From a virus (Duplodnaviria; Caudoviricetes), in the IMG/VR virus record IMGVR_UViG_3300028591_000085, positions 1 through 64,000 of that record: a stretch of DNA of 64,000 nt; one strand, 5' to 3'. Shown in pieces: positions 27,263-46,900 of the stretch. The notes beneath the pieces were generated by a model, which searched no databases, had not been told where the DNA came from, and saw only the letters and a program-made list of their open reading frames with translations. How positions within the stretch are numbered: the stretch's first letter is position 1; each line of letters begins with the position of its first letter. The position numbers were made by a program, and so were the translations under genes.

Positions 27263-30200
27263 TTATAAACCTCTGGCAATCTTTCTTGCAATAATAGTAT
27301 TTCTCGAACTATCGCCAGCTAATGATGTTTTAGGCTTATGGGCAGCTTCCATATTACGAATAGTATCCTGTATTACAGTACTATTGTTATTAACTATATT
27401 TTGTGGTTTTATTGAACTCAATCCAGTAATACCATTGCTGGTATTATAAGTATTGGTTACAATATTATTTAAAAGTCCTATAATTTGTTGCATACTCGCG
27501 GGGTCAACTTGACTAGTATTAATATTATTAGTAACATGATTAGTGCTTCTATAAATATCACTTGCTGTTCCTCCATCAATTAAACCAGATTCAATTGAGA
27601 AGTCCTCAGTGCCTAATCCATAACCACCACGATTAGTAATTTTTCTATTTGATTTAATTAAATCATCTGTATATTTATTTATTTTATTAGTAGTATCTTT
27701 AATTGATTTCGCATTACGATGTTTAATAGAAGCTGATGTGTTGGTATTACCCTTGCCAGCCCGTGATTTTTTACGTGAACCATATCCACCACTATTTAAT
27801 GAATCCATATAATTCTTATAATTAATAGAAGAACTAATATTCGGCATACTAGAAGAACTGGTAGAAGTATTGGATTTCTTAGTAGCTTTGTTCGCAAATT
27901 CATCATAGTACTTTTGAGCGGCATTCCTACGATTATCTGACATAGGTATGCCTGGTCTTTCATAAACCTTCATGAATGATTCAGCAGCTCTAATTGGATC
28001 AGATATACTTTTGAACTCATCATATGTCATACCACCAAGTTCTACCCAATCACTGTAAATTGTATCATTTCTACCGGAATTAGTCATTGTCTTGTGGAGA
28101 TATTCCATCTGTAAACCTACATCATTTCTCCACGCCAAATTATCTCCTTTTACTTCTTGTGAATATGCACCTATTTTAGATCCCCATGGAGTCCATTGAA
28201 CCAGTCCACCGCCACCGTCTTGCGAATATACACCTGGGTCAAAACCAGATTCTTGTTCAATATTACCCATAATACCAGCAATTGCTGCTGCTGAATATCC
28301 ATATCCAGCAAGTGCATTCCACACTTGTTCTTTAACACTGTTACCATCAACAGTGCCTGCGGCATCACTAGAAGCACTTGATGAACTATCAAGTGATGCA
28401 TCACTAGATGAACTTGAAGAAGATGATGACGAACTACTTGATTTAAGTCCAGACAAGAAGCCAGAATAATCTGTGTCTAATTCTCCAGTAAACATTGCAT
28501 TTGTCATTCTTCGACCAGCTTCACTAAATACCGAAGCTATGAAACTCATACCATCTTCAACTGATGAACTTGATGATGATGAGCTTGATGCCATAGATGC
28601 ATCAGAAGAAGATGATGAACTTGCTGTACCAAGAGGTACGTAGTTGTTACTAGCATCCGTGTATGCATAACCAATTACACCTTTATTCTGCCATTCAGAG
28701 AACGGAGTTGCTTGTATTACACCATCATCGGCAGATACTACATTGTCAGAGTTACCATTTGCTTCAGACCAATATACTGTTTGATTATCTTTATCAACAC
28801 CTTCTACATATACAACATGTCCATACGGACTGCTAGAATGCATAGAAGCTAATGAATCATCAGCAATTTCACTACCTGTAGGTAAACCTAACCCGCTGAC
28901 AGTATTTACTACATCTTGACCGTTTCCTAATGAAACGCCTTTATTAAGGCCTTCCCATTTAGCTCGTTCCCATGCACGTCCTTCAGCATACCATGTACAT
29001 TGACCAGCATCACATTGAGCTTTGGATGTATATCCTTCAGAACTAAAATCAGCAAGGCGCTGGCCTACTGCAGCTTTAAGTTCTTGAATATGTTTACTAT
29101 TATCATGGGTTCCAGATGATGTCGTTCCATCAGTAGAAGACTGTTTTTTCTGATAATCTGCATAATCAGCAGCAGAATTAATACGAGGTGTATTTCCTTT
29201 TCCAGTTCCTCTTCCGCCACCGTATGATTTTACAGGTAAAGAGCTGTTTCTAACATTAGATGTCAGACCGCCTAATTGTGTTTTATTAAGTTTAATAAGT
29301 TCGGGTAAATTCATAGAATTCTTATTAATAATAGCTTTTCCAGAACCACCTGCACCTATCTTTGAAAGTATCTCATTATATATTGCTCTATATGATGAGG
29401 CATCATAATGAAGACCACCATCACTTGATTTAATTGTACCGTCGTTGACTTTTTCAGTAAACCATGAATCTAAATCTATAAACTTAATTTTATCATTTTT
29501 TAATTCACTTATTGCTTTCTTAAGCGCACTATTGTATGATTTAATGTAATCACTATTTTTAGATTTTGATGCTAAGTGACCTACAGATACAAAATATATT
29601 GTATTTTTTATACTTGAAGCTATTTTTTCTGCTTGATAAGCATACAATTTAGCAGTGTCAGTCATTTGGGTATTCGGGGTGTTTTCAGCAACATCGTTTA
29701 TACCTAACCAAATAACTACTTTAGCATTTGTACTACCTTTAGCATATTCAGCTATTTTTGCAGGTGCGGTATATGTAAACCATTGAATACCTTGCGATAC
29801 TTGAGCAATGTATACATTACCATCTTTACCTTCAGTATAAATAGCATTCATACCTTCACCGTTATAAGCATTGACTGATGTATACATTCCAACAGTTCGT
29901 GAATCACCAACGAATATAACTTTGGAATTATTAGGCTTTGATTTAACCGAATCTAAACTATCTGAACGGTTATCACCATTTTTCTTATTATCAGTATTTT
30001 TCTCACCTTGCTTATAGCCATTCAAACCTTTTTGCATAATAAGCGAAGGATAATCAGTATTACATTTATCCATGTCTACGGCTTTACCAGGAATACCTTT
30101 AACCTGCATTTCCTGTGGATCTCCAGCATATTGCCAAATTTTCCATTTAAGGGTAGGCTGATAACTTCCCCATTTAGCAACCCATAGTGCATATTTATTT

Positions 30201-33200
30201 TTAGTTTCTTTAGTTACATGATCAAATGTAGCATTTTCTGATCCATATACCATTGGTAAATAGTTATTTTTTTCAAGAACTGAACAGAATGCCTCGATTA
30301 TCTTAGACACTTTTTCAGCACCTAATGATTCAAGAGATACAGTTCTATATTTTTCTTCAACATCATATGCAATAGGCATATCAAATTTTTTACCTTTAAT
30401 TATATCTAAACAACGTTTAGCTTCAGCAATAGCTTCATTTTCAGTATTCGCACGACAGTAATAATATCCTCCAACATGAATACCAGCATTAATACAACCA
30501 GCATAATGCTCTTCAAACATATTATCGGTAATATCTTGACCTTCACCAATTTTAATCATGGCAAATTCTATACCATCAGCTTTAGCTTTCTTATAATCAC
30601 AATTAGTTTGACAATAACTAATATCAACACCTTTAGCACCGGATTTCATCGAATCTTCTCTATTATCAATACTAGAATATTCATAGTCAGAATTACTAGA
30701 TGAAGATGATGTACTTGTTCCAGTACTTGATGATGAACTCGTTGATGTACCAATTGTAGCATTCGATGACTCAGATGATGATTTTTCACCACGAATACTT
30801 GCAAGGATATCAGAGAAATCCACATTGAAATTACCGGTAAATAATCCATTTATTAATGCGGTACCTACTCTAGAAAATACTTGAGAAATGAAATCAAGTA
30901 TTGAGGGCTTTGAGTCTTTACTTGAACTGCTCGATGTTGATGAGTTATTGGAGCCTGGTTTACCTGAAGAACTCATTGATGAAGCATTTGTGGAGGACTT
31001 ATCATTAGATGTACCATATGTTTTTCCAGTATATGGGTCAGCATTAGTATACGCATATCCTAGAACTTTACCACCCCATAACGGGAACTCAGACATAGGT
31101 GTTTCTATAACACAACCATCTTCAGCTCTAGTTCCACCACGCTGACTTGCTAATCCATCTCCATTCGCTTCAGTCCAGTATACCATGTTATTCTTTTCAT
31201 CAAAACCTTCAATATATACTGCATGACCAGATTCACTACCAGTATCTATCGATGCTACCGAATCATCTGCAATTTCATTACCAGTTGGGAAACCAAGTTT
31301 CCCTGCATTCGCTACAACTTGATTACCGTTGCCTAACATTGACCCTGTATCAAGTGCACCCCATTTAGCACGTTCATATGCACGTCCTTCAGCATACCAT
31401 GTACATTGGCCAACATCACACTGAGCCTTTGTTGTATATCCTTCATTACTAAAATCAGCAATTCTTTTACCGATATTTTCTTTTAACCACTCTATTTGTT
31501 TTTGGTGAAGCTCTTCACGAGAACTTTCAATTTTACGAGGTTTTACATTATCACTGATTAATTTATTTATAACAGCATCTTCAGTCATTCCTGCTGGGAA
31601 TGAGTATGAATTATTATCAGCATCAGTATAATGATATCCACCATTACTATCTCTAGTAATACCTTTTCTATATTCATCTTTAGATACTGATGTTTTAGTA
31701 TTTTTATTATTTGATTTTTTATTAGTACTACTTGATTCATTTTTAAGATACGATGCAAGTTCATTCATATCTTTTACAACTATAATATTTCGATTATTTG
31801 TATCAGGCTTATAAAATGCGTCCGATACATAGGTTTTTCCATTATATGTAAATGACGGTGCATTATTGCCGTAACCAGTTGCTAAGCTCCGTTTATTATA
31901 AATACCATCTTTACCATAAATTTTATCAGCTAATTTGTCAATATTATTAATATCTGAGAAAATATCTTTTTCATTTGTTGATACTGACCATGCCTTAGAA
32001 AGGCTTCCGAATTTTTTATCCTTATCATTATAAGTATATTTATAATTATATCCACCATTATTATCTCTGGTTAATGTTCCTTTATATTTAACCTCATCAG
32101 ACTTGTATCCATCACCGAAACCACCATATTGTCCATTATCAAATGACCAGGCTTTACCGGTTCTATTTACAATATCATTAAGTTTGTATTTCTTGTTATA
32201 AGATTTTCCACGAGGATCACTTATATCAACGTTACCATTTGAATCAATACCAGTAGCAACTACATAATGTCCAGCGTCAGTATAAGGATCATCTCCCCTA
32301 CCACCATAACGTCCATTACCAGATGCTCCTGAAAGAATCATAGGTTTACCACTCTTTAATTCAGATGAAATGAATTGAGAGCTAGGCATGAATTCTTCAG
32401 TAGTATTAATACCATATGCATTTGAAGCATTATCTATAAAATTCCAATTTGTTCCAGTATCATCTCTGTCTCCAGTCATTTCAGCAAGTGCTGCTGTTTC
32501 AGTAGGTAATACAGATTGACCGGTCATCTTGGATGCTATCATAGACATTGCGGTAGGACCACATCCGGTATCATCCATGGTCGCTCCATCATTACCATAC
32601 TTATTTGAACTCCACGCAGAGTCAGACTGTGAGTAATACGGAACACCATTTACATCGTCAGGTCCTCTACCACCCTTAGGAAGTTTCTTTCGAGATTTAG
32701 ACCCCTTACCATTACCTCCCCATAATGATGTGATGTTTTCAATGTAACCAGTAGTAGTATCCTTAACTTCATTCCAAATACCAGTAGCATGCTCTTTGAT
32801 TCCTGAAATAAAGTTATTAATACCTTCAGCTATTCCATCGACAATTTTCGAAACAGTCGGGAATTTTTCGTGTATAGTTTCATATACAGACGACATAAAG
32901 TCGCTTGCCTTATCAAAGAATTTGCTAGTTGCTTCTGTAGTTTTATTCCATAATTCTTTTGCTCTATCTTTAAAATTCTGAAGAGAATTTTTAGCAGTAT
33001 TTTTCAACGGAATCTTTTCTTTAGTTAATAAACCTAATTTTATCTTTTCATTAACTTCATCAGCATTTACTGTTTCGTCAATCAGGTCACCATTAGCATT
33101 ATAATGCTTATAAGTTTTACCATCAGCAACATAATAGCTACCATCAGACGGATCAAACCATCCATACTGATTTGTCAATTTAAGTATCCCTAAACCAGCT

Positions 33201-36200
33201 CCTGCTATAGGATTTATTAAACTAAACGCAGCAGTTACGCCCTCTCTAACTTTATAGAGAACTGAATCTCTATTGTTGAACATATCGGTCCATGCATTAG
33301 ATAATTTTTCTTTGAGCTTTGCGCCAGTTTCTTTAATCTTGGTGAAATCAAAATGAGAAGTAACATCCTTAATGAATATACCAGACTTAATAGACTGCTC
33401 AACTTCTTCGTCTGTTCTGGGATTTTCAAGAACTTCATCAGTTGCTGAATAGTAAACATATTTACCATTTTCGTTCTTATAATATGTACCATCACCAACT
33501 AAATACTTCTCATCAGTTGACATTATCTTTGATACAAGCCCGTTACCCTTACTAATAGCATCTGCTAATTTAGAACTTTTCCTGATATTATCTAATAATT
33601 TTTCACCTAAAGATGTTGCAATTTTAGCAGAATTTTCTTGATTTTCATCACGCTTTTTAAATAAACTTGACCAGGCCTCAGCAGCATCATTTAATATAGT
33701 ATGTGCTATAGCAGTAGTTTTACCCATTATTTTTATATTTGTCGCTTTTATTATTCCCTGTTGGATAAGACTTGTAAGTTCTTCATCTGTTATAGGTGGA
33801 ACTTCTTGATCATATCCATCTGCATCACATAATGACCATTTACCGTTACTAGATTCATGGTAATAATAGCCAGCATACTCGCCACTCAAAACTTGATATG
33901 CGGTAACCTTTCTTGATCCAATTAGTTTTCTACCATAATCTCCGCCAGTAAAGAAATCACCGACGCTTTTAATTTTATCACCAACTATTGATACTGCTTC
34001 ATCGGTAACACCTCTGATATGTCCACCTATTTTAGCAGCTTTTTCACCGACCTTATCGCCAATGGTCTTATTCTGTTCCAAGTTCCAATCATCAAATGAT
34101 TTATGTTTAATTACTTCATTATTTTCTTCAGCCCATTGTTTATATTCATCGACTGACATATTCTTATCAACTTTACCAGATTTTTTAGCTTCTTCTAGGG
34201 ATTTTTCAGTTTGCTCAAGAACATAACTGTTATATTCATCCATAAAATTAGTTTGAGCATCCTTTAATCTAGCTTCATCAGAATCACCGGCAAATAAATT
34301 ATATAATGCATTTGCAATGTTATGCCAGCCATTCCAACCACTTAATGTATTAATAATATCAAAGATAACATCAACTATTGCACCGATTGTAGTTCCTGAA
34401 AAACCTCCAAGAATTGCAGCAATTATTTCCATTCCAGTATCAACATCATCTTGACTTACTTGGAATAATTTAGCAGCACCAGCTTTTCCACCACGTGCTA
34501 TCATGCCTAATATGCCACCACCAACTTCAAATACAATGGTACCAACTCCAAGAGTTGCAGCACCTGTTGCAGTTTTAGCTTCAGCTTCAGCAGTTACCTT
34601 TTCGACCTGTCCGACTTCTTTCGGACCAAATTTTTCAACAGCCTCCTTAATAATTTTTTCAGCTTCATCAACCGACTTAGTGGTTCCTTTAGCACCTTTA
34701 TGTTTAACAAGATCCACTATCTTTTTAAAGAAATTTTTAATTGTTTCTTTAATTCTAGTAATCATATTTTTAAGAACACCACCGGCACCCTTTTCAGTCG
34801 ATGCTAATGATGCACTATTAATTTCAATATTTTTAGCATGTTTTAATACAGCTTTTTCATACTTAGCAGCTTGTTTACTTAATTTTTTAGATTTCTTAGT
34901 TAATTTGGCAGCTTCTTTTTCTAAGTCAGTTAATGTTTCAAGTCCTACCTTTTCTGCACCACGTCCAAAACTATGAGAGAATCCTGCCATCGCTGCTTTT
35001 TTTGACGCTTCCTTAGCTTCAGTTTCTGCAAGTTTTGCTGCTGCCTCAGCAGCAATTTTCTTTTCTAGTGCTTTAGCGCCCTTAGCAGTAGCATGTTCCA
35101 TACCTTTTGTACCAAGATAGTTTAATCCACCACTAACAGCTCTAAAACCAGATGCACTCTTAGGATTAAAAATATCAGCTGCAGAATGTATATTTGCACC
35201 TTTTGATAAAACTTTACCCACACCCTGAGCAGTACCACCAACTATTTTAGTTCCGACGGTTGGAATTACTGATGCTCCTTTTCCAACAACTTTCAGTGTA
35301 CCACCCATAACTGCAGCGGTACCTCTAATTGCACCAGGATGCATTAATAAATTAGCTTTAGCTTGAGAGTGAGAATCCCATTCACCGTCTTTATTAGTCA
35401 CAAATGTCATAGGAGCTGCTAATGGGTCATAATTTTCTCCAGGAAGTAGTTGTTTAGCTGCAGCAACACTATTTTGGGCTTCGTCTTTAATATTATCTAT
35501 ATTACTCTGCCCATTAGTATTTCTATCATTTTTATTGCCTAAGAAATTAATTACGTCGGCCACTTTATTTACTAGATCAGCTGCAACATCAGCAATTTTT
35601 ATAACAGCACTTGAAAATGCTTCCCAATTAATTTTTTTAACAAGTTCAGCTGTACCATCTGCAATTTTTGTTCCGATGAACCATATATTCTTTGCTAAAC
35701 TTGAAATACCATCTATATACGGTTTAAGACTACTATTTTCATATTTTTCTTTAATCCATCCAGTGAATCCCTTTTCTTTAATATCGTTAATAGCTTGAGT
35801 AGCACCCTGTGCCATTTCAGAAAAATACGATTCCCCAGTTTTCTGGTTAACAAAAATATTTTTAATCTTTTCACCTAAAGTTTCACCTATACCATCACCC
35901 TTTAAGAATGACCAGATATTTCCTAAGATTCCACCTAAAGGTGAAGAGGCTAACCATTTAAATGCTTTTATAAGAAAAGGAGAAGCAAGTATTAAAGCAG
36001 TTGCAAGTTTTCCTTTTCTACCAAAAACACTCTTCCATTCAGCAAAATGGTCACTTGCTCTCGATTTGATAACAGCAGTATTTTCCTTTATTGCTGTAAA
36101 TAACTTCTCTGTTCTATCTCTGGTTTGTTCAGCTATTCTATGAGCAAGTCGTTGACCTCCCTGATGCACATTACTAAGTGTGGACATGATCGGATTAGGG

Positions 36201-39200
36201 TCAATCGCTGCTGCTCCAGATTCAAAGCCTTTACCACCTCTAACAACACGTACAATAGGACCATGGCCGCCAAAATTTATTTTTCGTCTAGTACCATTTC
36301 CACCATTTGCTGTCGCAGAGGCATTATTTTCATTTATTAAACGTTCAAGCCTATCAAGTTTTTCAGAATCTCCTGTAAGCTCAAAATGTATAGTCTTAAT
36401 TCCGTGTTTAAGATCAACCTGTAATGTGTCAGAATCTTGCCGACTACATCCACTACATCTCTTTGCTAAATCTTCTAAAGAACCGATATCGTCAATTTCA
36501 ACAGTACTATTTTCTAATTCATCTAAATTTTCCAACGGATTATTAGTTTTACCATTATTGGACATCATCTTTTTCCTACCCTTATTTCTAAGAGAGGCTT
36601 CCGATTTTTTAGCTTTATTACGTAACTGCATTATTAAATTATTATCATCATAATTATCATAAGAGCTGACATCTTCCATATTCTCACTGAAATCAGCGTC
36701 TTCATCTTGATATCCTTTACTATATTTACTATAGCTATCTTTTAATCCAGCGGTTGAATCCATATTTCCTTCTTGCAATTTATTACCGTCCAAATCTATG
36801 AGTTCACCTTTAGTATTACGTAAAATACCGGTTTTTAAAACTCTATTAGCTACAGTAACTACAGTTTCGCCAGGATCAAGATATATAATTTTTTTAGATA
36901 ATAATTTAGTAAGTTTATCCTGTACTTGTTCTGCAATATTATCTGCTCTATAATCGTATATATATTTAGCATGACCTGATGTAAAGTTCAATATTCCTTC
37001 ATTAAATTTATGACGTAAAAATCCTTTTACACCACCATGCATTGATACTTCGTCACCAAAGAACCGTGATGATGCAGCCTTTGCTATAACTCCACCTTTA
37101 GTTTTAGCTTGTGCAAGTCTTAACTTAGTAGCACTAAACGCATAATCTAAACCACTATGATCGCCGGGAGTATTATCAATAGTATCTTTTACTTCACGTT
37201 CAACAGCATCATAATCAATATTACCAGTAGCATCTTTATGCTTATTGATAATTTCAGTGAGTTCGGTATATCCTTTTTCACGTTCAGCTTGACTTGTATT
37301 ACTAAATCTACGTTCAAGTTCTTTATCATTTTTATCAGAGAATCTGTCTGAATCATCATCATTGCCAGAAATCTTATCATATATTTTCTTTAATACATAA
37401 GCTATCTGAGCATTCTCACTAAGTTTTGAGAACGGTAATTTTACTATATCTTTAAATCCTTTACCGATTAATGAAATACCTTCAGTTTGCTCACGCGCTC
37501 TTCTAGTAAGTGCATCTTCGGTTTCAACCGTAGTATCAAGATATTTACTTGCCTTACCGCCACTCATTACTTTAGCCATATAACGAGCTTCAGCTGTATC
37601 AGACGAATATTGACCTTTAGTATATTTCTGAATTATTTTTGCGTTCTTATCACGAATTTTTTGTTCTTTATATTCTTTATTAATTTTAGCACGAGCTTCT
37701 TTTTGTTGTTTTCTACGCTCACGCCATCTTTCAGCTCTGGTCATACCATCAAGCTGTTCCTGAGTTCTACTTGTTGGTGCTGTAATACCAAATGCTTTAC
37801 CAAACTTAGTATTACTTAACCATTTCATACCTTTTTTAGCACCGTATACACCTAACTGTAATGCAGTACCAATACCTTTAAACGCAAGTTTAATAGGTGA
37901 AAATGCTAATTTAGTAAGACCAACAATTTGTCTACCTATTGATTTAATCTCAGTTTTAATAGTTCGCTTAAGCCAATCTTTTCCTGTATCTAAAGCTGCT
38001 TTAAGTTTACTATTACGCCATGCATCTGAAAGCTTATTATATACAGTAAATTGTATTGCTTTAATTAATTTAAACGGTGCAAGAAGTATATGTTGATTTA
38101 CTTCATAAGCTAGTTTAGCAGCTCCAGAAATGACTTTCTTAACGGGAGTTACTATAGTTTTATTAAGTATTTCAGCAAACGGTACTAAAATACTATTTTT
38201 AATAAATCCTGAAATATCATTTGCAACTTCATCAAATTTTGATTTAACTGCACCAACTACACCTCCAACTTTTTCAGAGATCGCCTCTGCCATAAATGAA
38301 AGTGAGTCACCAACAGTATATTCCAAATTAAGTGCAATTTGTTTACCCCAATATACAAACTGGGTCTTCAGAGGTCTTAAGAAGTTTGCATTAAGCATAT
38401 TTCCAATACGACCGAATAATCCATGCTTATGCTTCTTTTCACCAGTATATTCGTCTATATAATCTTCACCAAATAAGAATTTCTTAAATGCTGAACCATT
38501 TGCAGCAATAGAAGCACCGAGACCCATTAATGCACCAAACACAGGTCCACCAGGTAAAACAGCACTAGCTAAAGCACCACCTAAAATACCTAAACCTGAC
38601 ATTGAAAGAATCTTGGTGTCTTGGCTTAAATTAACACCTATAGAACCAGCAAACTTATCAGCGCCTTTTCTAAATGCATCTCTTATTCCAGGAAGTAATC
38701 CTTTTTGAGCAGTGTCAGGATTTCCGAATAAGAAGTTTTTCATTTTCTCAGATCTAGCCACTAACGTTGTAGCTATACCGAGACCAGCACCTACAATAGG
38801 ACCGCCCACAAGAGTGCCAAGAAGACCTCCACCTTTTCCAAAAAGGGAATGTGTCAGCATTCCGATTGCTCCACCACCAATGATGTCAAGCTTATGTTTC
38901 TTTAAATAATCTTGAGCGCCCTTGCTAATGAAACCACCAATACGGTCACCATTTTCATCTTTTTCGCCGAATAACCAATTTTGGAAAGATTCATTCTTAG
39001 CTAAAATACTACCAGCTATACCAAGACCTACACCTGTAATAGGACCACCAATGATAGAACCTAAAAGGCTCGAACCTGCAAATATACCAAAACCGGCACC
39101 TATAGCACCGCCAATAGTAGCATCCTTGGTATAACTATTCACTTTAGCTTGTACTTTTTTCTTTATATCTTCTTCACTCTGACCTTCAAGAGGTTCACCT

Positions 39201-41560
39201 ATAATTTTTTCTTTCCATGCATTAAGACCCTGACTAAAGAAATCTTTAAACTTGGAGAATAATCCACCTTTACGTTTACCAGTAGGATTTCCATTTTCAT
39301 CAAGTTCTTCAGGTCCAAATAATTTAGTCAAAATTCCTCGTTTAATTGTACCAAATACAGAATCTTTATTATCAGCATACTCAGTACCATCACTAGAAGT
39401 ATAACCTGTACCAACTAAAGTGTACCTTATATGTTTAAAAGTATCACCTAAGTAATTACGTACTTGAGACAATAAACCATTTTGGTAATTACCGTTTTCA
39501 TCTTTAACACCTAATATAGCTTCCTTAAGAGGATTAAATACATTATTTTTAAGACTAGTACCAATATCACTAGCACCAGACTTAAAAATTCTTTGAAACT
39601 CTTGTCCAACTAATCTAATATCAAGCGGACCAGACATAAGTCGATTCATGCTTCCTTTTAAGGTATCTACTGTATTAGTGAAAAAGCTACCAACTTTACC
39701 ACCATGAGTAGCTAACCATCCAGCTTTACTTGGGTCGCTTTGCTGAAGAGCATAGCTATAATCTCTGAGATTTGCAATACTCTTATTTTTAAGACTTTTT
39801 TTAATTTCAGTATTATATAATGATGAATTAGCGCGAAGCCATTCATCGTAATTCTCAATATGAGTATCTCCAGTTGCAAAATATCCAGACCTTATCGGAT
39901 CATTTTCTATTTCTGATAAGAACTTAGTTTGATCAGCTTGAGTACTTCTTAACTGAGCAGTTAATTGTCCAGCTATATCTTTATTTTGCTCTGAAATTTT
40001 TAATAGCTCTTTAACAACTAAATCAATATTCTTATCATTTTTTCCACCAGAAAAACTCTTGGCTTGTTTAATAGCTTCAACAAAAGCTTCATTACCCATA
40101 TCCAGACTTAAATGAGATCTTTGCTCAGCCATTGATTTGAGTAATTGCTTTGCTGTAATGATAAGAGCATCTCGTTCTTCTTTAGCTTTATCTTCTGTTT
40201 GAGATTTAGTAGCTTGGGTAAAAGCATTTTCGAGTTCTTTGAACATTCTTCCATTATACAGTGGCTCCATTATTTTATTAAGTGCAGCATCTGCATTAGA
40301 ACGTCTCTTATCTTTTACCTGTATATAACCCATAGTATTAAAATCAAACATTTCAGAATCGTCTTTAGCTGTTTTAGTTTTTTCAGATTCGAAATGTCCG
40401 CTAATTATTTTCAGATACTGGGTTTGTTCTCTAAGCTCCTTAGTGATAATTTCGGTAATAGCAAATTTAGTTTCTTTATCAAAACGAATCGGACTATTCT
40501 CAAATTCATCAATTGATAACGTATTTTTCCTATTAACTCTAACACCGAATGTTTGAGCAAGGAATTTTTTAAAGTGTCCACCAATATCATGTTCACCGAC
40601 TACTACATTTTCTCCATACTCTGCTAATCTATCCAATATGACTGGTACAAAATTTGAAAATGCCGTCTCAAGACTTTGCATAGTAGAACCAAATACCTTA
40701 CTCATTAAGGTAGAACTAACCATACTTGAAACCATGCCCAGAGGATTCTCAATAAACATCTCAATCAAACTATCATCAAGATTAACTATTTCACCAATAA
40801 AAGGAACTTCGCTTAATGCACGTTTTGCATTCTTCTTGATTACATTCTTATATCGTGATAATTCTATACCACCTTTAGTACGATCCCTTAATGCCGCTAA
40901 CGGGTCATCTTCATTTTTTAATATGGATGCACCATTATCTTCTCGTTTACCAACGGCTTCATAATACCCTATACTTTTTTGAATGAATTCCTTCATGGAT
41001 TCATTATTGAATTTTACAATAGATTCAAGAGAATTTGTTACATTCTTTAAGTGAGCGTCTATCATGCCATTCATTTTTTCAAGTTGCTGCATACTTACAG
41101 CATTCATTGAAATTTGGGCATCCATATTAGCTTTAGCAATTTTTACAGTTGCTTCACCTTGACGCTGTATATTTCTATTTAAATCGAGAACAGCATCTCT
41201 AGTACCGTTATCGACATTTATATTATAACTACCTTCACCTTCACCCACATCATCTGATCCAAATGTAATATCTGATGATTCATCATCATCAGCAAACATA
41301 CCCCCAAAACCAAAATCAGAGTCATGACCGGCTATGTTACCAGCTTTTATATCTTTCCATGAATTTTTGAGAGCTTGATATGAAGCCTGAACATATTTGT
41401 TCTGCTTCAATGATGTAGCAATCCTATTTGTAGTTGCTTTTGTCTGTCTTATAGATGTAATTATTGATTTTGTAGCATTAATGCCAGCTGACGTAACATC
41501 AGATATATTAGGATATAATTCACTAAAAGCTGATGACGTGCTAGCTCCTATACTCTTCAT
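27263..41560 (-). CDS. Giant tape-measure-like tail protein with C39-like peptidase, 2x CHAP, GH25, SGNH hydrolase and phage tail lysozyme domains
   Basis: ~2950-aa helical/Gly-zipper region, then PYYSQ...GCGPTAMSM...GHY (C39-like), GQCTWYA...GHAV/GHVV (CHAP x2), GVDISYCQ...YDVEE (GH25), FVGDSR...GIND...GLHY (SGNH), AGIMGNIEQES...YERP (lysozyme). Confidence 0.88.
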   Translation of the reverse strand: MKSIGASTSSAFSELYPNISDVTSAGINATKSIITSIRQTKATTNRIATSLKQNKYVQASYQALKNSWKDIKAGNIAGHDSDFGFGGMFADDDESSDITFGSDDVGEGEGSYNINVDNGTRDAVLDLNRNIQRQGEATVKIAKANMDAQISMNAVSMQQLEKMNGMIDAHLKNVTNSLESIVKFNNESMKEFIQKSIGYYEAVGKREDNGASILKNEDDPLAALRDRTKGGIELSRYKNVIKKNAKRALSEVPFIGEIVNLDDSLIEMFIENPLGMVSSMVSSTLMSKVFGSTMQSLETAFSNFVPVILDRLAEYGENVVVGEHDIGGHFKKFLAQTFGVRVNRKNTLSIDEFENSPIRFDKETKFAITEIITKELREQTQYLKIISGHFESEKTKTAKDDSEMFDFNTMGYIQVKDKRRSNADAALNKIMEPLYNGRMFKELENAFTQATKSQTEDKAKEERDALIITAKQLLKSMAEQRSHLSLDMGNEAFVEAIKQAKSFSGGKNDKNIDLVVKELLKISEQNKDIAGQLTAQLRSTQADQTKFLSEIENDPIRSGYFATGDTHIENYDEWLRANSSLYNTEIKKSLKNKSIANLRDYSYALQQSDPSKAGWLATHGGKVGSFFTNTVDTLKGSMNRLMSGPLDIRLVGQEFQRIFKSGASDIGTSLKNNVFNPLKEAILGVKDENGNYQNGLLSQVRNYLGDTFKHIRYTLVGTGYTSSDGTEYADNKDSVFGTIKRGILTKLFGPEELDENGNPTGKRKGGLFSKFKDFFSQGLNAWKEKIIGEPLEGQSEEDIKKKVQAKVNSYTKDATIGGAIGAGFGIFAGSSLLGSIIGGPITGVGLGIAGSILAKNESFQNWLFGEKDENGDRIGGFISKGAQDYLKKHKLDIIGGGAIGMLTHSLFGKGGGLLGTLVGGPIVGAGLGIATTLVARSEKMKNFLFGNPDTAQKGLLPGIRDAFRKGADKFAGSIGVNLSQDTKILSMSGLGILGGALASAVLPGGPVFGALMGLGASIAANGSAFKKFLFGEDYIDEYTGEKKHKHGLFGRIGNMLNANFLRPLKTQFVYWGKQIALNLEYTVGDSLSFMAEAISEKVGGVVGAVKSKFDEVANDISGFIKNSILVPFAEILNKTIVTPVKKVISGAAKLAYEVNQHILLAPFKLIKAIQFTVYNKLSDAWRNSKLKAALDTGKDWLKRTIKTEIKSIGRQIVGLTKLAFSPIKLAFKGIGTALQLGVYGAKKGMKWLSNTKFGKAFGITAPTSRTQEQLDGMTRAERWRERRKQQKEARAKINKEYKEQKIRDKNAKIIQKYTKGQYSSDTAEARYMAKVMSGGKASKYLDTTVETEDALTRRAREQTEGISLIGKGFKDIVKLPFSKLSENAQIAYVLKKIYDKISGNDDDSDRFSDKNDKELERRFSNTSQAEREKGYTELTEIINKHKDATGNIDYDAVEREVKDTIDNTPGDHSGLDYAFSATKLRLAQAKTKGGVIAKAASSRFFGDEVSMHGGVKGFLRHKFNEGILNFTSGHAKYIYDYRADNIAEQVQDKLTKLLSKKIIYLDPGETVVTVANRVLKTGILRNTKGELIDLDGNKLQEGNMDSTAGLKDSYSKYSKGYQDEDADFSENMEDVSSYDNYDDNNLIMQLRNKAKKSEASLRNKGRKKMMSNNGKTNNPLENLDELENSTVEIDDIGSLEDLAKRCSGCSRQDSDTLQVDLKHGIKTIHFELTGDSEKLDRLERLINENNASATANGGNGTRRKINFGGHGPIVRVVRGGKGFESGAAAIDPNPIMSTLSNVHQGGQRLAHRIAEQTRDRTEKLFTAIKENTAVIKSRASDHFAEWKSVFGRKGKLATALILASPFLIKAFKWLASSPLGGILGNIWSFLKGDGIGETLGEKIKNIFVNQKTGESYFSEMAQGATQAINDIKEKGFTGWIKEKYENSSLKPYIDGISSLAKNIWFIGTKIADGTAELVKKINWEAFSSAVIKIADVAADLVNKVADVINFLGNKNDRNTNGQSNIDNIKDEAQNSVAAAKQLLPGENYDPLAAPMTFVTNKDGEWDSHSQAKANLLMHPGAIRGTAAVMGGTLKVVGKGASVIPTVGTKIVGGTAQGVGKVLSKGANIHSAADIFNPKSASGFRAVSGGLNYLGTKGMEHATAKGAKALEKKIAAEAAAKLAETEAKEASKKAAMAGFSHSFGRGAEKVGLETLTDLEKEAAKLTKKSKKLSKQAAKYEKAVLKHAKNIEINSASLASTEKGAGGVLKNMITRIKETIKNFFKKIVDLVKHKGAKGTTKSVDEAEKIIKEAVEKFGPKEVGQVEKVTAEAEAKTATGAATLGVGTIVFEVGGGILGMIARGGKAGAAKLFQVSQDDVDTGMEIIAAILGGFSGTTIGAIVDVIFDIINTLSGWNGWHNIANALYNLFAGDSDEARLKDAQTNFMDEYNSYVLEQTEKSLEEAKKSGKVDKNMSVDEYKQWAEENNEVIKHKSFDDWNLEQNKTIGDKVGEKAAKIGGHIRGVTDEAVSIVGDKIKSVGDFFTGGDYGRKLIGSRKVTAYQVLSGEYAGYYYHESSNGKWSLCDADGYDQEVPPITDEELTSLIQQGIIKATNIKIMGKTTAIAHTILNDAAEAWSSLFKKRDENQENSAKIATSLGEKLLDNIRKSSKLADAISKGNGLVSKIMSTDEKYLVGDGTYYKNENGKYVYYSATDEVLENPRTDEEVEQSIKSGIFIKDVTSHFDFTKIKETGAKLKEKLSNAWTDMFNNRDSVLYKVREGVTAAFSLINPIAGAGLGILKLTNQYGWFDPSDGSYYVADGKTYKHYNANGDLIDETVNADEVNEKIKLGLLTKEKIPLKNTAKNSLQNFKDRAKELWNKTTEATSKFFDKASDFMSSVYETIHEKFPTVSKIVDGIAEGINNFISGIKEHATGIWNEVKDTTTGYIENITSLWGGNGKGSKSRKKLPKGGRGPDDVNGVPYYSQSDSAWSSNKYGNDGATMDDTGCGPTAMSMIASKMTGQSVLPTETAALAEMTGDRDDTGTNWNFIDNASNAYGINTTEEFMPSSQFISSELKSGKPMILSGASGNGRYGGRGDDPYTDAGHYVVATGIDSNGNVDISDPRGKSYNKKYKLNDIVNRTGKAWSFDNGQYGGFGDGYKSDEVKYKGTLTRDNNGGYNYKYTYNDKDKKFGSLSKAWSVSTNEKDIFSDINNIDKLADKIYGKDGIYNKRSLATGYGNNAPSFTYNGKTYVSDAFYKPDTNNRNIIVVKDMNELASYLKNESSSTNKKSNNKNTKTSVSKDEYRKGITRDSNGGYHYTDADNNSYSFPAGMTEDAVINKLISDNVKPRKIESSREELHQKQIEWLKENIGKRIADFSNEGYTTKAQCDVGQCTWYAEGRAYERAKWGALDTGSMLGNGNQVVANAGKLGFPTGNEIADDSVASIDTGSESGHAVYIEGFDEKNNMVYWTEANGDGLASQRGGTRAEDGCVIETPMSEFPLWGGKVLGYAYTNADPYTGKTYGTSNDKSSTNASSMSSSGKPGSNNSSTSSSSSKDSKPSILDFISQVFSRVGTALINGLFTGNFNVDFSDILASIRGEKSSSESSNATIGTSTSSSSSTGTSTSSSSSNSDYEYSSIDNREDSMKSGAKGVDISYCQTNCDYKKAKADGIEFAMIKIGEGQDITDNMFEEHYAGCINAGIHVGGYYYCRANTENEAIAEAKRCLDIIKGKKFDMPIAYDVEEKYRTVSLESLGAEKVSKIIEAFCSVLEKNNYLPMVYGSENATFDHVTKETKNKYALWVAKWGSYQPTLKWKIWQYAGDPQEMQVKGIPGKAVDMDKCNTDYPSLIMQKGLNGYKQGEKNTDNKKNGDNRSDSLDSVKSKPNNSKVIFVGDSRTVGMYTSVNAYNGEGMNAIYTEGKDGNVYIAQVSQGIQWFTYTAPAKIAEYAKGSTNAKVVIWLGINDVAENTPNTQMTDTAKLYAYQAEKIASSIKNTIYFVSVGHLASKSKNSDYIKSYNSALKKAISELKNDKIKFIDLDSWFTEKVNDGTIKSSDGGLHYDASSYRAIYNEILSKIGAGGSGKAIINKNSMNLPELIKLNKTQLGGLTSNVRNSSLPVKSYGGGRGTGKGNTPRINSAADYADYQKKQSSTDGTTSSGTHDNSKHIQELKAAVGQRLADFSSEGYTSKAQCDAGQCTWYAEGRAWERAKWEGLNKGVSLGNGQDVVNTVSGLGLPTGSEIADDSLASMHSSSPYGHVVYVEGVDKDNQTVYWSEANGNSDNVVSADDGVIQATPFSEWQNKGVIGYAYTDASNNYVPLGTASSSSSSDASMASSSSSSSSSVEDGMSFIASVFSEAGRRMTNAMFTGELDTDYSGFLSGLKSSSSSSSSSSSSSDASLDSSSSASSDAAGTVDGNSVKEQVWNALAGYGYSAAAIAGIMGNIEQESGFDPGVYSQDGGGGLVQWTPWGSKIGAYSQEVKGDNLAWRNDVGLQMEYLHKTMTNSGRNDTIYSDWVELGGMTYDEFKSISDPIRAAESFMKVYERPGIPMSDNRRNAAQKYYDEFANKATKKSNTSTSSSSMPNISSSINYKNYMDSLNSGGYGSRKKSRAGKGNTNTSASIKHRNAKSIKDTTNKINKYTDDLIKSNRKITNRGGYGLGTEDFSIESGLIDGGTASDIYRSTNHVTNNINTSQVDPASMQQIIGLLNNIVTNTYNTSNGITGLSSIKPQNIVNNNSTVIQDTIRNMEAAHKPKTSLAGDSSRNTIIARKIARGL

Positions 41561-41782: not shown

Positions 41783-42343
41783 TTACTTAATCTTCTTCCT
41801 TTCCTGTAACCATGACGGGCAGGAAGACTTAGAAGCAACTTCCTTATGCTTCTTCTTCTTGGTCTCATAGGTGCCAAGATACGATCTATCCTGAGGACTA
41901 TGTGCATCAGTTACCGTGGTCTTATCACCAACATCCTTCAGATAAATCTTACCATTAAAATCTTTTCTAGGCAGGAATTCGAACTGGTTACCTGCACCCA
42001 TATATTCATAGAGTGCAGTCGCAAAGAACTCATACATTCCATCCATAGACGGAATAATGAATGACTTATCCAGAATCTTTACGGATTCTGACTTATCCAT
42101 ACCCGCCTTTTCGAGAAGCGACTTACACCACTTTCTGAATTCCTTAGAAACCATAATCTCCTCAACATCGTCAAGGTTACCCTTCTTAATCTTAGCAACC
42201 TCGGTAGTAAACTCTACATCATTTGCAAGAGCAGTAAGGAGCTTAGTGAAATTCTTTTTGTTAAAACGATTTACAATCGTTTTTCCGTTCTTAGTCTTAG
42301 CCTTCATTTCAGCCAGGGCTTCTTCAACTGTTAATACTTTCAT
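41783..42343 (-). CDS. Putative HU/IHF-like DNA-binding protein with N-terminal extension
   Basis: ALYEYMGAGNQFEF...GKIYLK...SPQDRS...KHKEVASK resembles the HU beta-arm; strong RBS, AAG-rich codons. Confidence 0.45.
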   Translation of the reverse strand: MKVLTVEEALAEMKAKTKNGKTIVNRFNKKNFTKLLTALANDVEFTTEVAKIKKGNLDDVEEIMVSKEFRKWCKSLLEKAGMDKSESVKILDKSFIIPSMDGMYEFFATALYEYMGAGNQFEFLPRKDFNGKIYLKDVGDKTTVTDAHSPQDRSYLGTYETKKKKHKEVASKSSCPSWLQERKKIK

Positions 42344-42459
42344 GATTTTTTCCTCCTTGATTTTTCTTTCTTGTCTTTTTTGATTTTCTTACGTTCTTTT
42401 ACTAACCGTAAAATATCATCAAGACAAAACGATTCCAGGTTGTCGATTTTGATTTTCAT
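42340..42459 (-). CDS. Small basic protein (below the ORF-track cutoff)
   Basis: MKIKIDNLESFCLDDILRLVKERKKIKKDKKEKSRRKKS; RBS GAAAGGG; TGA overlaps ATG 42343. Confidence 0.55.
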   Translation of the reverse strand: MKIKIDNLESFCLDDILRLVKERKKIKKDKKEKSRRKKS

Positions 42460-42501
42460 CTTCATCAACCCTTTCATTACAATATTGTGTAGTGTATAAT
42501 A

Positions 42502-42511
42502 AAATAATATA
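42502..42511 (-). promoter_or_regulatory. Early-type promoter TATATTATTT
   Basis: Exact motif. Confidence 0.55.
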
Positions 42512-42580
42512 ATAAAGTATATAACTTCTACACAATATAATATTATATAATAAAAACCGTAAAGTCGGTTTTTTCGATGA

Positions 42581-42590
42581 TATACTATTT
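42581..42590 (+). promoter_or_regulatory. Early-type promoter TATACTATTT
   Basis: One mismatch to consensus, precedes structured leader copy 1. Confidence 0.55.
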
Positions 42591-42606
42591 ATGTGCCATA
42601 ATGATA

Positions 42607-42687
42607 TTGTCAATAATATCATTACCAACTTACGCATTCCGATTGATGGAAAGTAAGACGTAAGGTTTCGTGTAATGATTGAGACAA
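42607..42687 (+). ncRNA. Structured 5' leader RNA, copy 1 (unclassified)
   Basis: Nested stems ttgtc/gacaa, atcattac/gtaatgat, cttacg/cgtaag, ttcc/ggaa; covaries with copy 2. Confidence 0.75.
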
Positions 42688-42712
42688 AATAAATTTTAAA
42701 GGAGGAATCATT

Positions 42713-43066
42713 ATGACAAAAATCGTAAACCTCACTCCCCACATGGTAACCATCATGGGCGAGGGCAACAAGTTTGCCCTCAATATCGAGCCATCTGGCA
42801 AGTTGGCTCGTGTATCCGCTACGACCGTAGTCGTAGGTGAGATAGAGGTGAGGACCGACATACGGACGACGTTTAAGGTACCCATAACGACAACCCGTTA
42901 CGGGGAGGTTGAGGGACTCCCCGATCCCGCGCCTGATACTATCTACGTAGTATCCTCCCTTGTCGCGGGACGTGTCCCCGACAGGGAGGATGTTTTCATC
43001 CCGAACGAGTCCGTTCGGGATGACGAGGGGAGGATCATCGGATGCCGTTCCCTCGGCCACATCTGA
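42713..43066 (+). CDS. NLTPH-family protein, probable Crn4-like cyclic oligoadenylate ring nuclease (candidate anti-type III CRISPR)
   Basis: NLTPH...PSGKLARV...YGEVEGLP...IYVVSSLVA...REDVFIP...VRDDEGRIIGCRSL; RBS AAAGGAGG; ~55% GC. Crn4 label is from recollection of the family motif. Confidence 0.65.
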   Translation: MTKIVNLTPHMVTIMGEGNKFALNIEPSGKLARVSATTVVVGEIEVRTDIRTTFKVPITTTRYGEVEGLPDPAPDTIYVVSSLVAGRVPDREDVFIPNESVRDDEGRIIGCRSLGHI

Positions 43067-43075
43067 TGACCTAAA

Positions 43076-43410
43076 CCACATGAAAGGAGGTGATTAACAT
43101 GTGGAATTAATTAGCACCCATCCCCAAAGGGTGAACGTGGTTTCTATACTGACACGTAAAAAAGTATAGCGTTGATAGTTTCGTAAAACTATAGATATCC
43201 GTCATACTTTGTATGGTCCAGAGCTCGCTAGTGGGAGTAACTGGTGAAAAGGAAGAAAGAAGTAATACTATGCGAGTTAGTATTATGAGCGCTCACTAGA
43301 AATGCCGAACATCTTGGGGTGGAAGATACGTATAAGAATCAGAAATGTACGGCGCATTTCTGTTACATAACTAAAAATAAGTTGAAGTTCTCGCATCAAC
43401 TTATTTTTTT
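43076..43410 (+). ncRNA. Highly structured ~335-nt non-coding RNA (unclassified), ending in a terminator
   Basis: About eight hairpins plus five loop-mediated pairings; no long ORF. Confidence 0.7.
43373..43410 (+). terminator. Intrinsic terminator
   Basis: aaaaataagttga / tcaacttattttttt. Confidence 0.85.
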
Positions 43411-43464
43411 ATAATTTTTTATATAATCAAATTTACTCATTCGTATTTTGTTTTTTTGTATATA

Positions 43465-43474
43465 TATATTATTT
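43465..43474 (+). promoter_or_regulatory. Early-type promoter TATATTATTT
   Basis: Exact motif, precedes structured leader copy 2. Confidence 0.6.
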
Positions 43475-43494
43475 ATTTAGTCATATTGATAATA

Positions 43495-43570
43495 TACCAA
43501 TAGAACTATACCAACTTATGCATTCCTAATAGAGGATATTAGTCATAAGGTGTCGAGTATAGTTATGGTA
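43495..43570 (+). ncRNA. Structured 5' leader RNA, copy 2 (unclassified)
   Basis: tacca/tggta, aactatac/gtatagtt, cttatg/cataag, tcct/agga. Confidence 0.75.
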
Positions 43571-43594
43571 AATAAAAAATAAGGAGGTATCATT

Positions 43595-43903
43595 ATGACT
43601 GATAAGAACATATTCGAAATAGCCTCAAACGATGCTGAGGCTAACCAACTCATGGAGAAGGTTTTTTATGCATCAAAAACCTTCAACGACACTCTGTTCT
43701 CGATCAAATATTTGATCGAGAACAGATACAATAATAAAGCTCCTGGATCAATGATTGAGCTGCTCTATCAGCTCAAAGGTATGGCAGAAAAGTTAATAGT
43801 ATCTGCCGAAATCATTTCCGACTTCGGTCATATGCTGGCCGAAGTCAAGGCTTTGAGCGAAAATGATTCAGTCGAAGCTGAGGAAGCTAAGACTGAGGGC
43901 TAA
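43595..43903 (+). CDS. Early hypothetical protein (helical, acidic)
   Basis: 102 aa, RBS AAGGAGG, GC above background. Confidence 0.8.
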   Translation: MTDKNIFEIASNDAEANQLMEKVFYASKTFNDTLFSIKYLIENRYNNKAPGSMIELLYQLKGMAEKLIVSAEIISDFGHMLAEVKALSENDSVEAEEAKTEG

Positions 43904-43909
43904 AAGATA

Positions 43910-43955
43910 AGGACTCCCCGAACAATCTGGTGTTCGTTCGGGGAGTCTTTTTTTT
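43910..43955 (+). terminator. Intrinsic terminator
   Basis: gactccccgaac / gttcggggagtc followed by a T-run. Confidence 0.9.
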
Positions 43956-46900
43956 TAATCTTTTTTGTCATAAATTTCTTTTAAGCTTCTTTTTAATTCT
44001 ATAATGCATTTATTACCAAGTGCTGTTAACAATATACTCGGTGTCATACGTTTTAAAATACTATTAGAAGCTATTATTGTACTAACTTCTTCTTCGGGTC
44101 TATAACTACTCCAGGGTTCATATCCTGCAGGAATTATTTCACCAATGGTATTCTTAAGAGCAGTAAAATTGGCTATCTTGGAGCCAACTTCTAGAGGTTC
44201 AGAGTGTTTTACATAGAACTCTATAAGTACTCCACCCTCTTCAATTTTTTCTCCTTTAATAACACCAAATTTATTGGGTTCAATTTTTTTACTTGTTTCA
44301 TTAACAAGTAAACCACATTTAACTATACTACCAGCTGAGTCCGGATCATACTTTTCTAAGAACTTTTTCTTAGAATTTATAGTACTATAATAATTACTTA
44401 CAATCTTTCTTAATGAAGGTGAAAGCTCATCAAGTTCAACTGTAGAATATATCTTAATTTCTTCAATTACTCCTGAATATTTGGAATGAATGTCATTCCT
44501 ACTCCCTTCAAGAATAGTAGATTGTTCCTCTTGACTAAGATTTGCAAGTAAAGTATTCAATGAATTATCTTCAAATGAAGTATCAAATTGAATCAAGCTG
44601 TCTCCTACTTTTATTTCTTGACCTTTTTTAACCATATATTCAACGTTAGCATTTTTACCAATTACAACACTCTTTAAGAAACACATCTCTGTTGCAGCTT
44701 CATCTGATAATTTTTCAGTTATCATTGTAGCATCTTGATAAGTGTTATAAGTAGACATGATTGCAACTTTAGTAAGTGTTCCCATGTTCATTCTGCAATT
44801 ATTAAACTTATCATTGGTAAAGAAGTCTTTATGATAAGCTAATACAGAATCTTTCTTAAACTTATCTCCAACTTTTAATGTAGTAATTAATTGGTTACTC
44901 AAGAAGAAACCACCGCCACCATTTTTAACAATAGTATGACCTAGGTTAACAGCTTGACATTTCCCAGAGTTATATTTAACTATCATTATATCATCTTTAT
45001 AATCTACTACAATACCATCTTCAGCAGCATTGACAGCAAAGTCTGATGATAATTGGAAACGACAAACTTCTTCCATACCATTAGATATTAATACAGGGGA
45101 TGATTTCTTTACAGGAATAGTATGTTTAGATTGTTTTAATGCGTGTCCAAGACGAGTAGGGTCATCATTAGTAGCACCTAAAGGTATAGTTAATTCAGCA
45201 GGTGAGAATACATCTACATCGTGTAACGTATCCAATTTTTCATTTTTTGAATCAACGTAATTTAAATCAACATATCCACGTAACGACGTTATTGAAGGAT
45301 TAAACGTAAGAGTCTTGCTTACACCACAAGAACCGTCAGGAGATGTTGACGGTGATATAACACCTATCGAGGTCTTATCAAAAGTTCTTTTAGGAACTGT
45401 ATAAGATTCATCAAGGTTAGCACCTCTAAATCCTTTACTAGAAATACCACGGAACATTTCCATTTCAAGTGTTGGATTAAGTGTGGAATAATCTTCAACA
45501 GTTTTTAATGCAATAAGTTCTTTTATTACACAATCCTGAGGTACTGAATATGCTTTTTTACCGTTACTATTTCTATATAAAATATATTTCTTAGCAAGAC
45601 GCTCATAAAGAATAGCAGGTATTATTTCATTACATCTAATTCTTGATAGTCCCTGATTTATTTCAGGAGTATATTGAGAATCAGATAATAATGATACAGC
45701 GTATATGATTATCTCTATTAAGTCATAAGGAATATTAATATCTTTACATACTTCCACAGTTATGGGGTCCATCATAAATTCATACACGTTAAGTAATGCA
45801 TTTGCAATTGCAGCTTTACCCCAAACTTTTATTAAATATGGCATATATGGTTCTTTAGTATCCATTTCAGAGATTTTATAATTCTGAGTATCTAAGAATC
45901 TGTATCCATTTATTAATAAATCAATACCAACTGTAGATTCGTATACAAGATAGCAATCTGCAAATCTTAAATAGCTTTCATTAGGTTTAAGCTCAGGAAA
46001 CTTATCGTCAAGTCTATATTTAACTTTTCCTTTTTTAAGTAATGATGATAAACCTTCCCAAAATCCCAATAATAAACCAACAGCAACATACTGTTCAAGA
46101 ACTTTTGCTCTGGTATACATAAGTCTCTTAGGAGCTCTAGTAGATTCATATACATGTTTTTCTTCATCAGATAAAGCATTTAACATAATATAAACTATGG
46201 TATCATTATTATCAGTTTTTTGAGTTTCCTCATTTATATAAATAGGAGAACCGCTTTTATCTAAACCAATAAAGATATATCCTTTCTTCATGGGTATATC
46301 TCTTTTTTTAGCAAATTCTATTGCTTCATTCTGGTTAAATAAAATTTCAGTCTTTCCTTTTTTAAACTTTATCGCAATCTTAGAAAGTTCATCATACTCT
46401 ACTGTAGTAATAAACTTATTGTTTATTGAGATACAGTTTCCATATGTAAAGTATTTCTTTATTTCATCTGACTTTTTCAATACAGTTTTAAGTCTTTCTA
46501 TAGATGATAAAGATTTAGTTCCAACTCGTTCAATAAACATCTTATTGTAGTTAGTTGTTAACTGAACTATATTTGAACTAGTCTTCACAACTGGATATAA
46601 TAAGTTTTGTTTTTTGATAACTTTTCTATTGCCACCTATATAAATAAATTTATCTTCTATAAATTTAGGTATATCAACCTTAATTGTATGACGTTTTCTA
46701 TTAGTATCTTCAAGATAAATAGTATATGTATCTTTATAATTTAACTCATCAGACGAATCTTGAATTTTTATATCTCTAACAAACATGGGAAGAGACTTAT
46801 TATTTAATGAAAGAATTGCATCAGTTATATCTTTCGGCATTAATTTTTCATTATATTCCTTATCAAAATTATCAAATTTCAGTTGCGTCACATTTTTATT

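What the first reader, a model, noticed from the sequence alone, without database searches (positions are those of the whole stretch)
42480..43955. Candidate early counter-defence island combining protein and RNA parts
Seen: between two large late genes lie two parallel units. Unit 1 is early promoter > structured leader > Crn4-like gene > large structured RNA > terminator. Unit 2 is early promoter > same leader > unknown 102-aa gene > terminator. Both also share AGGAGG.ATCATTATGAC at the start codon. Inference: a cassette-like expression platform for anti-defence cargo, which makes the 43595 gene a guilt-by-association candidate. I do not recognise this arrangement as described.
Basis: partly seen in the sequence, partly recalled or inferred. 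Interest (0 to 1): 0.8.

Follow-up and report, generated by a model that had tools for sequence, protein, structure and literature searches.

The report
Anti-CRISPR gene trailing new folded RNA
A giant phage plugs small genes into a reusable early-expression cassette; one cassette carries a known type of anti-CRISPR enzyme followed by a folded RNA of a family I found in no catalogue, and the same enzyme-plus-RNA pairing recurs in an unrelated phage group.

Summary
The layout is real. In this PBS1/AR9-like jumbo phage, two cassettes each have an AR9-type early promoter, a covarying 5' hairpin leader, one gene and a terminator. Gene 1 is Crn4-family (PDB 9r7b, E 7e-16) with its catalytic His and Arg intact. 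The leader is not island-specific: about ten copies precede unrelated ORFans genome-wide and none precedes a recognisable core gene. Relatives gain, move or lack cassettes, as with morons and T4 PeSLs. So guilt by association for the 102-aa helical ORFan is weak.

The new part is the RNA behind crn4. Its core (43224-43299) defines a family absent from Rfam, with a strongly covarying pseudoknot, in about seven lineages. It sometimes occurs in tandem or stands alone. In two unrelated phage groups it directly follows crn4, but most crn4 lineages lack it. Most likely it is a trans-acting RNA with a binding core; a counter-defence role is about 25% likely and untested. No expression data could be obtained. 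The scan had noted one member earlier, on CPR DNA, as an orphan (e1-796993).

The parts
42558..42594 (+). Early promoter 1 (CGTA, 18 nt, ATATACTAT, 6 nt); predicted +1 at 42595
   Evidence: start site inferred from the AR9 consensus
42595..42712 (+). 5' leader 1; conserved core 42612-42688 (outer stem, 2x5 internal loop, 6-bp stem, internal loop, capped hairpin); 5' end predicted to pair over the start codon
42713..43066 (+). Crn4-family ring nuclease gene, 117 aa, T8/H10/R102; 55% GC in a 31% GC genome
43076..43104 (+). Hairpin exposing a full Shine-Dalgarno in its loop, then a 2-3 codon minigene (ATG at 43099); likely a ribosome-bound 5' stabiliser of the RNA
   Evidence: role inferred
43118..43322 (+). 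Body of the structured RNA, closed by pairing of 43118-43133 with 43310-43322
   Evidence: 96-99% identical in five related loci
43135..43169 (+). H-type pseudoknot with A-run loop in the RNA's 5' part
   Evidence: read from the sequence; a 3-nt deletion in L045 keeps it and breaks the rival MFE stem
43224..43299 (+). Family-defining RNA core: hairpin with 8-nt loop, invariant purine joiner at 43254, variable hairpin, invariant decamer at 43286 whose 3' end and next 4 nt pair with the loop
43340..43362 (+). Extra hairpin before the terminator
43373..43410 (+). Terminator-like hairpin plus T run ending unit 1
43442..43478 (+). Early promoter 2; predicted +1 at 43479
43479..43594 (+). 5' leader 2; core 43498-43573
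43595..43903 (+). 102-aa ORFan; predicted two-helix hairpin; only close relatives
43909..43956 (+). Terminator of unit 2, meeting the end of the convergent RNA polymerase beta gene

Best explanation
The stretch is two moron-like cassettes inserted at a variable site between core genes of a PBS1/AR9-like phage. The virion RNA polymerase reads each promoter at once on infection (inferred from AR9). The leader folds from +1 into a long hairpin that shields the mRNA 5' end and shows a conserved internal loop, most likely a protein-binding site that tunes stability or translation of all such cargo mRNAs (inferred). Unit 1 makes a Crn4 ring nuclease that most likely destroys cyclic oligoadenylates and blunts type III CRISPR (homology and residues shown; activity inferred). 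The same transcript runs on into a 230-330 nt RNA of an uncatalogued family (shown by covariation). That RNA probably persists on its own behind a ribosome-bound Shine-Dalgarno hairpin and works in trans through a compact pseudoknotted core that binds a protein or small ligand (inferred). Whether the target belongs to host defence is open (about 25%). The 102-aa gene is ordinary cargo of the same platform with no specific defence evidence.
For: Crn4 hit and residues. Ten leader copies, all before ORFans with high GC3 and mostly their own terminator. Third cassette in L018/L019/L021, and the 102-aa cassette in another 5' context in L020. Other inserts at this site in distant relatives. Six short-form leaders behind the same promoter in G002, none in the reversed control. 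In relatives the leader hairpin starts at the predicted +1. RNA core: 99.4% of cells paired, 34 two-sided changes, 0/500 shuffles, slid controls 31-49%; 10/10 pseudoknot partners complementary against 1.8 when shuffled; an untrained second copy found in L126 at 44.7 bits. Stand-alone and tandem copies. RNA 96-99% conserved while the crn4 protein is 59-86% identical.
Against: 19 of 34 distinct crn4 sequences lack the RNA, and no crn4 was found in four other RNA-bearing records, though these are incomplete. High identity of the RNA among close phages could reflect recent recombination rather than selection. The search pattern came from the two crn4-linked RNAs, which biases towards them. Folding predictions for the AU-rich leaders are weak on their own (z about -1). 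Host and its CRISPR content unknown.
Confidence: 0.6

Rival explanations
1. Two-part counter-defence module: the RNA is a functional partner of Crn4, for example a decoy for cyclic oligonucleotides or for a CRISPR or CBASS effector, and is kept next to it by selection.
For: The RNA directly follows crn4 in the AR9-like group and in an unrelated sigma70-promoter group lacking the AR9 polymerase. crn4 is rare (39 loci in viral contigs). RNA-bearing crn4 never form one clade in 200 bootstrap trees. Tandem cores suit a sponge.
Against: Five of about seven RNA lineages are not next to crn4. The AU test does not reject a single origin (p 0.099), so the link may be one inherited unit. One copy sits in a CPR chromosome. 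No binding data.
Confidence: 0.25
2. The RNA is a GOLLD/ROOL-like passenger: a self-assembling ornate RNA that uses any strong early transcript, with a role unrelated to defence.
For: Sporadic spread (1 of 151 CPR-class genomes; absent from five related jumbo phages). Very variable periphery and length. One copy lies beside a tRNA. The invariant decamer is palindromic or nearly so, which could allow dimers.
Against: No match to the GOLLD or ROOL models. Does not explain the repeated position behind crn4.
Confidence: 0.3
3. The core is a ribozyme or a cis-acting 3' element that processes or stabilises the upstream mRNA.
For: Small pseudoknotted core with invariant unpaired purines, as in small ribozymes. 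A hammerhead-like motif follows one member (L101, read by eye).
Against: No known ribozyme model matches. Several members have their own promoter and no upstream gene on the transcript.
Confidence: 0.15
4. The leader is an RNase III-type processing site or a switch: cutting or refolding frees the start codon that the mRNA 5' end pairs over.
For: In both units, a third genome copy and seven related cassettes the start codon is predicted paired (unpaired probability at most 0.04) while the Shine-Dalgarno is largely open. An asymmetric loop in a long stem recalls T7 and SP82 sites (own knowledge).
Against: Most other copies, and the short form in L032 and L033, lack pairing of the 5' end with the start codon. 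The copies that have it are closely related. The helix is AU-rich. No riboswitch model matches.
Confidence: 0.25
5. The shared leaders are only recombination handles left by duplication, with no RNA function.
For: PeSL precedent (PMC2839356). Near-identical flanks surround divergent crn4 alleles in L031 and L045.
Against: Compensatory changes in both inner stems, and the same internal loop in a shorter hairpin in another phage, show selection on structure.
Confidence: 0.07

Closest known systems
Crn4 ring nucleases, Crn4b-like (PMC12830947; PDB 9r7b, 9sma)
   Same: Full-length homology; Thr, His and Arg conserved; phage copies already proposed as anti-CRISPRs.
   Different: No RNA partner or cassette context in the passages I read; activity of this copy untested.
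PeSL cassettes of T4-like phages RB49 and phi1 (PMC2839356); morons (own knowledge)
   Same: Repeated promoter plus stem-loop units around ORFans, with gain, loss and replacement between close phages.
   Different: The promoter is of the phage virion-polymerase type, not sigma70. The conserved fold lies in the 5' UTR and covaries, whereas PeSL stem-loops are terminators. Cassettes are dispersed singly between core genes.
AR9 early promoters (PMC5312081)
   Same: AT-rich element ending TATTAT or TACTAT, 6 nt, purine start.
   Different: An extra upstream CGTA at fixed spacing and long structured leaders.
Large ornate RNAs GOLLD (RF02032) and ROOL (RF03087) (PMC12286853)
   Same: Phage-borne, pseudoknotted, function unknown, sometimes near tRNAs.
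   Different: No model match; an 80-nt invariant core with freely varying periphery; this copy is much shorter and follows an anti-CRISPR-family gene.
Ribosome-binding-site stabilisers such as that of phage SP82 (PMC7509114)
   Same: A strong Shine-Dalgarno without a real ORF can stabilise downstream RNA.
   Different: Here it would protect a non-coding RNA; not tested.

Membership tests
Crn4 ring nuclease | Sequence homology over the whole chain | tested here: met
   9r7b E 7e-16, 9sma E 2e-12
Crn4 ring nuclease | Conserved T13, H15, R112 (Crn4a numbering) | tested here: met
   T8, H10, R102; invariant in 30 homologues
Crn4 ring nuclease | Crn4b subtype: lacks about 10 residues of Crn4a | tested here: inconclusive
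   best hit is Crn4b, but the hairpin length lies between the two
Crn4 ring nuclease | Homodimer that cleaves cA3, cA4, cA6 | not testable with these tools
   needs biochemistry; the dimer was not modelled
AR9-type early promoter | AT-rich consensus, 6 nt, then G | tested here: met
   9/13 with G and 12/13 with A at +1
AR9-type early promoter | Mapped early start independent of translation | not testable with these tools
PeSL cassette | Repeated promoter and stem-loop units beside ORFans, with modular shuffling | tested here: met
PeSL cassette | Sigma70-like promoter | tested here: not met
   no excess of sigma70 sites; phage-type motif instead
PeSL cassette | The repeated stem-loop is a terminator | tested here: not met
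   it lies in the 5' UTR with no T run; terminators are separate and mostly unrelated
PeSL cassette | Mini-circle formation | not tested
   no reads available
GOLLD / ROOL | Match to the Rfam model | tested here: not met
   the ROOL search had no positive control
GOLLD / ROOL | Length of about 580-800 nt (own knowledge) | tested here: not met
   230-330 nt here; other members about 400-600 nt
GOLLD / ROOL | RNA-only multimers | not testable with these tools
   palindromic decamer is only a hint
Known riboswitch, ribozyme, tmRNA or RNase P | Match to an Rfam model or ARAGORN call | tested here: not met
RNA anti-CRISPR (solitary repeat mimic) | Resembles a CRISPR repeat of the host | tested here: inconclusive
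   no Rfam CRISPR repeat hit; host unknown

The most novel reading that the evidence does not exclude
The RNA core is a phage-made decoy for cyclic oligonucleotide signals or their effectors that travels with the Crn4 nuclease, giving a joint protein-plus-RNA block of type III CRISPR or CBASS signalling.
Probability: 0.2. Interest if true: 0.92.

Novelty: new variant of a known kind. Interest (0 to 1): 0.62.

Why it matters
Large phage RNAs such as GOLLD and ROOL have had no function, partly for lack of a genetic clue. This family has a small invariant core and a recurrent neighbour with known biochemistry, so one in-line probing series and one plasmid-challenge assay can test it. If it binds cyclic oligonucleotides it would be, to my knowledge, the first RNA sponge for an immune second messenger. 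The leader also gives a sequence tag for listing early accessory genes in an uncultured jumbo-phage clade.

Tried and rejected
Rfam scans of the window and of family members gave nothing above chance. GOLLD, ROOL and tmRNA were considered and rejected. Hammerhead, hairpin ribozyme, K-turn, preQ1 and T-box readings were compared by eye and lack key residues. Blastn of the RNA against cultured phages and plasmids gave only short chance hits. Exact long patterns for the leader found nothing in viral or genome collections, and model R1 missed the short form in relatives. Most raw hits of the first core pattern in bacterial genomes were chance and were filtered out by the pseudoknot test; a looser viral pattern added no new lineage. 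Weak R2 hits L280 and L299 lie in coding sequence. The 102-aa protein has no family, no fold match below E 0.001 and no distant homologue. The crn4 tree was inconclusive. The supplements of two structured-RNA catalogues could not be fully checked: none held for PMC10690425, and only 200 of 408 files for PMC8040213, with no hit, so prior listing there is not excluded.

Full report
Setting. The window is the start of a 203-kb, 31% GC virus record rated 85% complete. The gene right of the finding is a multisubunit RNA polymerase beta whose best cultured relatives are PBS1, Goe21, LPJP1, staphylococcal jumbo phages and AR9. On the left lie a 45-aa and a 186-aa gene, then a 4765-aa gene, all on the minus strand. 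In relatives L001, L002, L007 and L011 the beta and 186-aa genes keep this order with other inserts, or no clear one, between them. The site is therefore variable.

Observation. Both units are as described. The promoters fit the AR9 early consensus of PMC5312081 and put +1 at 42595 and 43479. An upstream CGTA at 17-19 nt spacing occurs nine times in the genome, a lead taken from e1-5642294 and checked here. Terminator-like hairpins end both units.

Crn4. The 117-aa protein matches Crn4b and Crn4a structures. T8, H10 and R102 align with T13, H15 and R112; His and Arg are essential in Crn4a, and phage copies are already proposed as anti-CRISPRs (PMC12830947). This part is a new member of a known family. 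Its activity is inferred.

Leader. Ten full copies occur in the genome (they are the training set of model R1), and three degenerate ones were seen by eye. Both inner stems covary: 13 cells change on both sides against 4.0 in shuffles. Every copy precedes a small or medium ORFan with GC3 of 0.32-0.65 against a genome median of 0.18; the ten scanned had no Pfam or PHROG hit. Close relatives carry a third cassette after unit 2, and L020 has the 102-aa cassette behind other genes. A related complete phage, G002, has six cassettes with the same promoter and a shorter hairpin that keeps the 2x5 internal loop, followed by a second, pseudoknotted leader. In most cases the hairpin begins at +1. So this is a clade-wide platform for accessory early genes, working like morons and PeSLs (PMC2839356) but failing two PeSL features. 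The shared start-codon motif marks a subfamily in which the mRNA 5' end is predicted to pair over the AUG. I read the leader as a 5' shield with a protein-binding loop; processing or switching is the main rival.

The 102-aa gene. It has three close homologues only, folds as two long helices and matches nothing. It shares the platform with a dozen other ORFans, so its defence odds are those of any early accessory gene.

The RNA. In L017, L018, L031 and L045 it is 96-99% identical while the crn4 protein is 59-86% identical. A search for crn4 loci showed that a second phage group, with sigma70-type promoters and no AR9 polymerase, also has a structured RNA right after crn4, single in L066 and tandem in L061. 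Shared motifs gave a pattern that recovered further members. All 15 distinct hits to the full descriptor have a fully complementary pseudoknot with eight different partner sequences, whereas looser chance hits rarely do. On 12 aligned cores 99.4% of cells pair, 34 change on both sides and slid controls fall to 31-49%. Model R2 found an untrained second copy in L126. Some of these sequences are close kin; I count about seven lineages. Contexts vary: behind crn4, behind an AR9-like promoter alone, beside a tRNA, and between ruvC and yebC in a CPR chromosome. That last copy is the orphan noted in e1-796993. The family is sporadic and matches neither Rfam nor GOLLD nor ROOL. Paper searches found no description, but two large catalogues could not be fully checked.

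Link to Crn4. Two of about seven lineages sit directly behind a rare gene, which chance would hardly give. But the pattern was built from those two, 19 of 34 crn4 sequences lack the RNA, and the tree cannot separate one origin from two (four changes; AU p 0.099). Four other RNA-bearing records, all incomplete, show no crn4. The link is suggestive, not obligatory.

Mechanism. Shown: cassette architecture, Crn4 membership by sequence, covarying structure of leader and RNA core. Inferred: early transcription by the virion polymerase, cOA cleavage, read-through into the RNA, protection by the exposed Shine-Dalgarno hairpin (precedent in PMC7509114), and action in trans through the core. Invariant unpaired purines around a pseudoknot, tandem copies and a free periphery fit a binding module best; a catalytic core or a self-assembling passenger remain open.

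Verdict. Observation confirmed; interpretation partly supported. The cassette and the nuclease are variants of known things. The RNA family is uncatalogued as far as I could check, and its recurrent pairing with a ring nuclease makes it testable. Interest 0.62; the decoy reading has about 20% probability.

Noticed in passing
G000 83750-83690 (-), 173990-174045 (+), about 127110-127040 (-), 174520-174600 (+); L032, L033, L286-L292: A second leader type, an H-type pseudoknot with a U-rich first loop just before the RBS, often stacked behind the hairpin leader; six copies in G002.
   Followed up: partly
window 42340-42477 (-): A 45-aa lysine-rich ORF overlapping the start of the 186-aa gene; a similar ORF precedes that gene in L002 and L007.
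   Followed up: no
window 43657-43684 and 43693-43726: Two near-perfect zero-spacer inverted repeats inside the 102-aa gene; the second is disrupted in L017 and L018.
   Followed up: partly
L031:435-842 and L045:132-605: The gene just upstream of the crn4 cassette in both loci ends in a similar C-terminal stretch and has Crn4-like wording (an NDLFIP or NDIFIP motif); possibly a diverged Crn4 paralogue.
   Followed up: no
L101:3400-3480: A hammerhead-like motif directly 3' of the RNA core in this member and in L133; Rfam did not report it at E 0.05.
   Followed up: no
L047, L051, L055, L059: Other AR9-like phages carry crn4 in stand-alone early cassettes with different, lineage-specific 5' hairpins and no large RNA.
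   Followed up: partly
L224:2960-3425 (-): A member of the RNA family in a CPR chromosome between ruvC and yebC, with a sigma70-like promoter; it shares a loop motif 3' of the core with L066.
   Followed up: partly
G000 174323-174440 and 175029-175150: Two adjacent cassettes end in near-identical 3' UTR and terminator sequences, and a similar terminator ends the third cassette in L018 and L021, suggesting terminators are shuffled as modules too.
   Followed up: no
window 27263-41560 (-): 4765-aa protein with what look like CHAP, GH25, SGNH and phage tail lysozyme domains (read by eye), pointing to a Gram-positive host.
   Followed up: no
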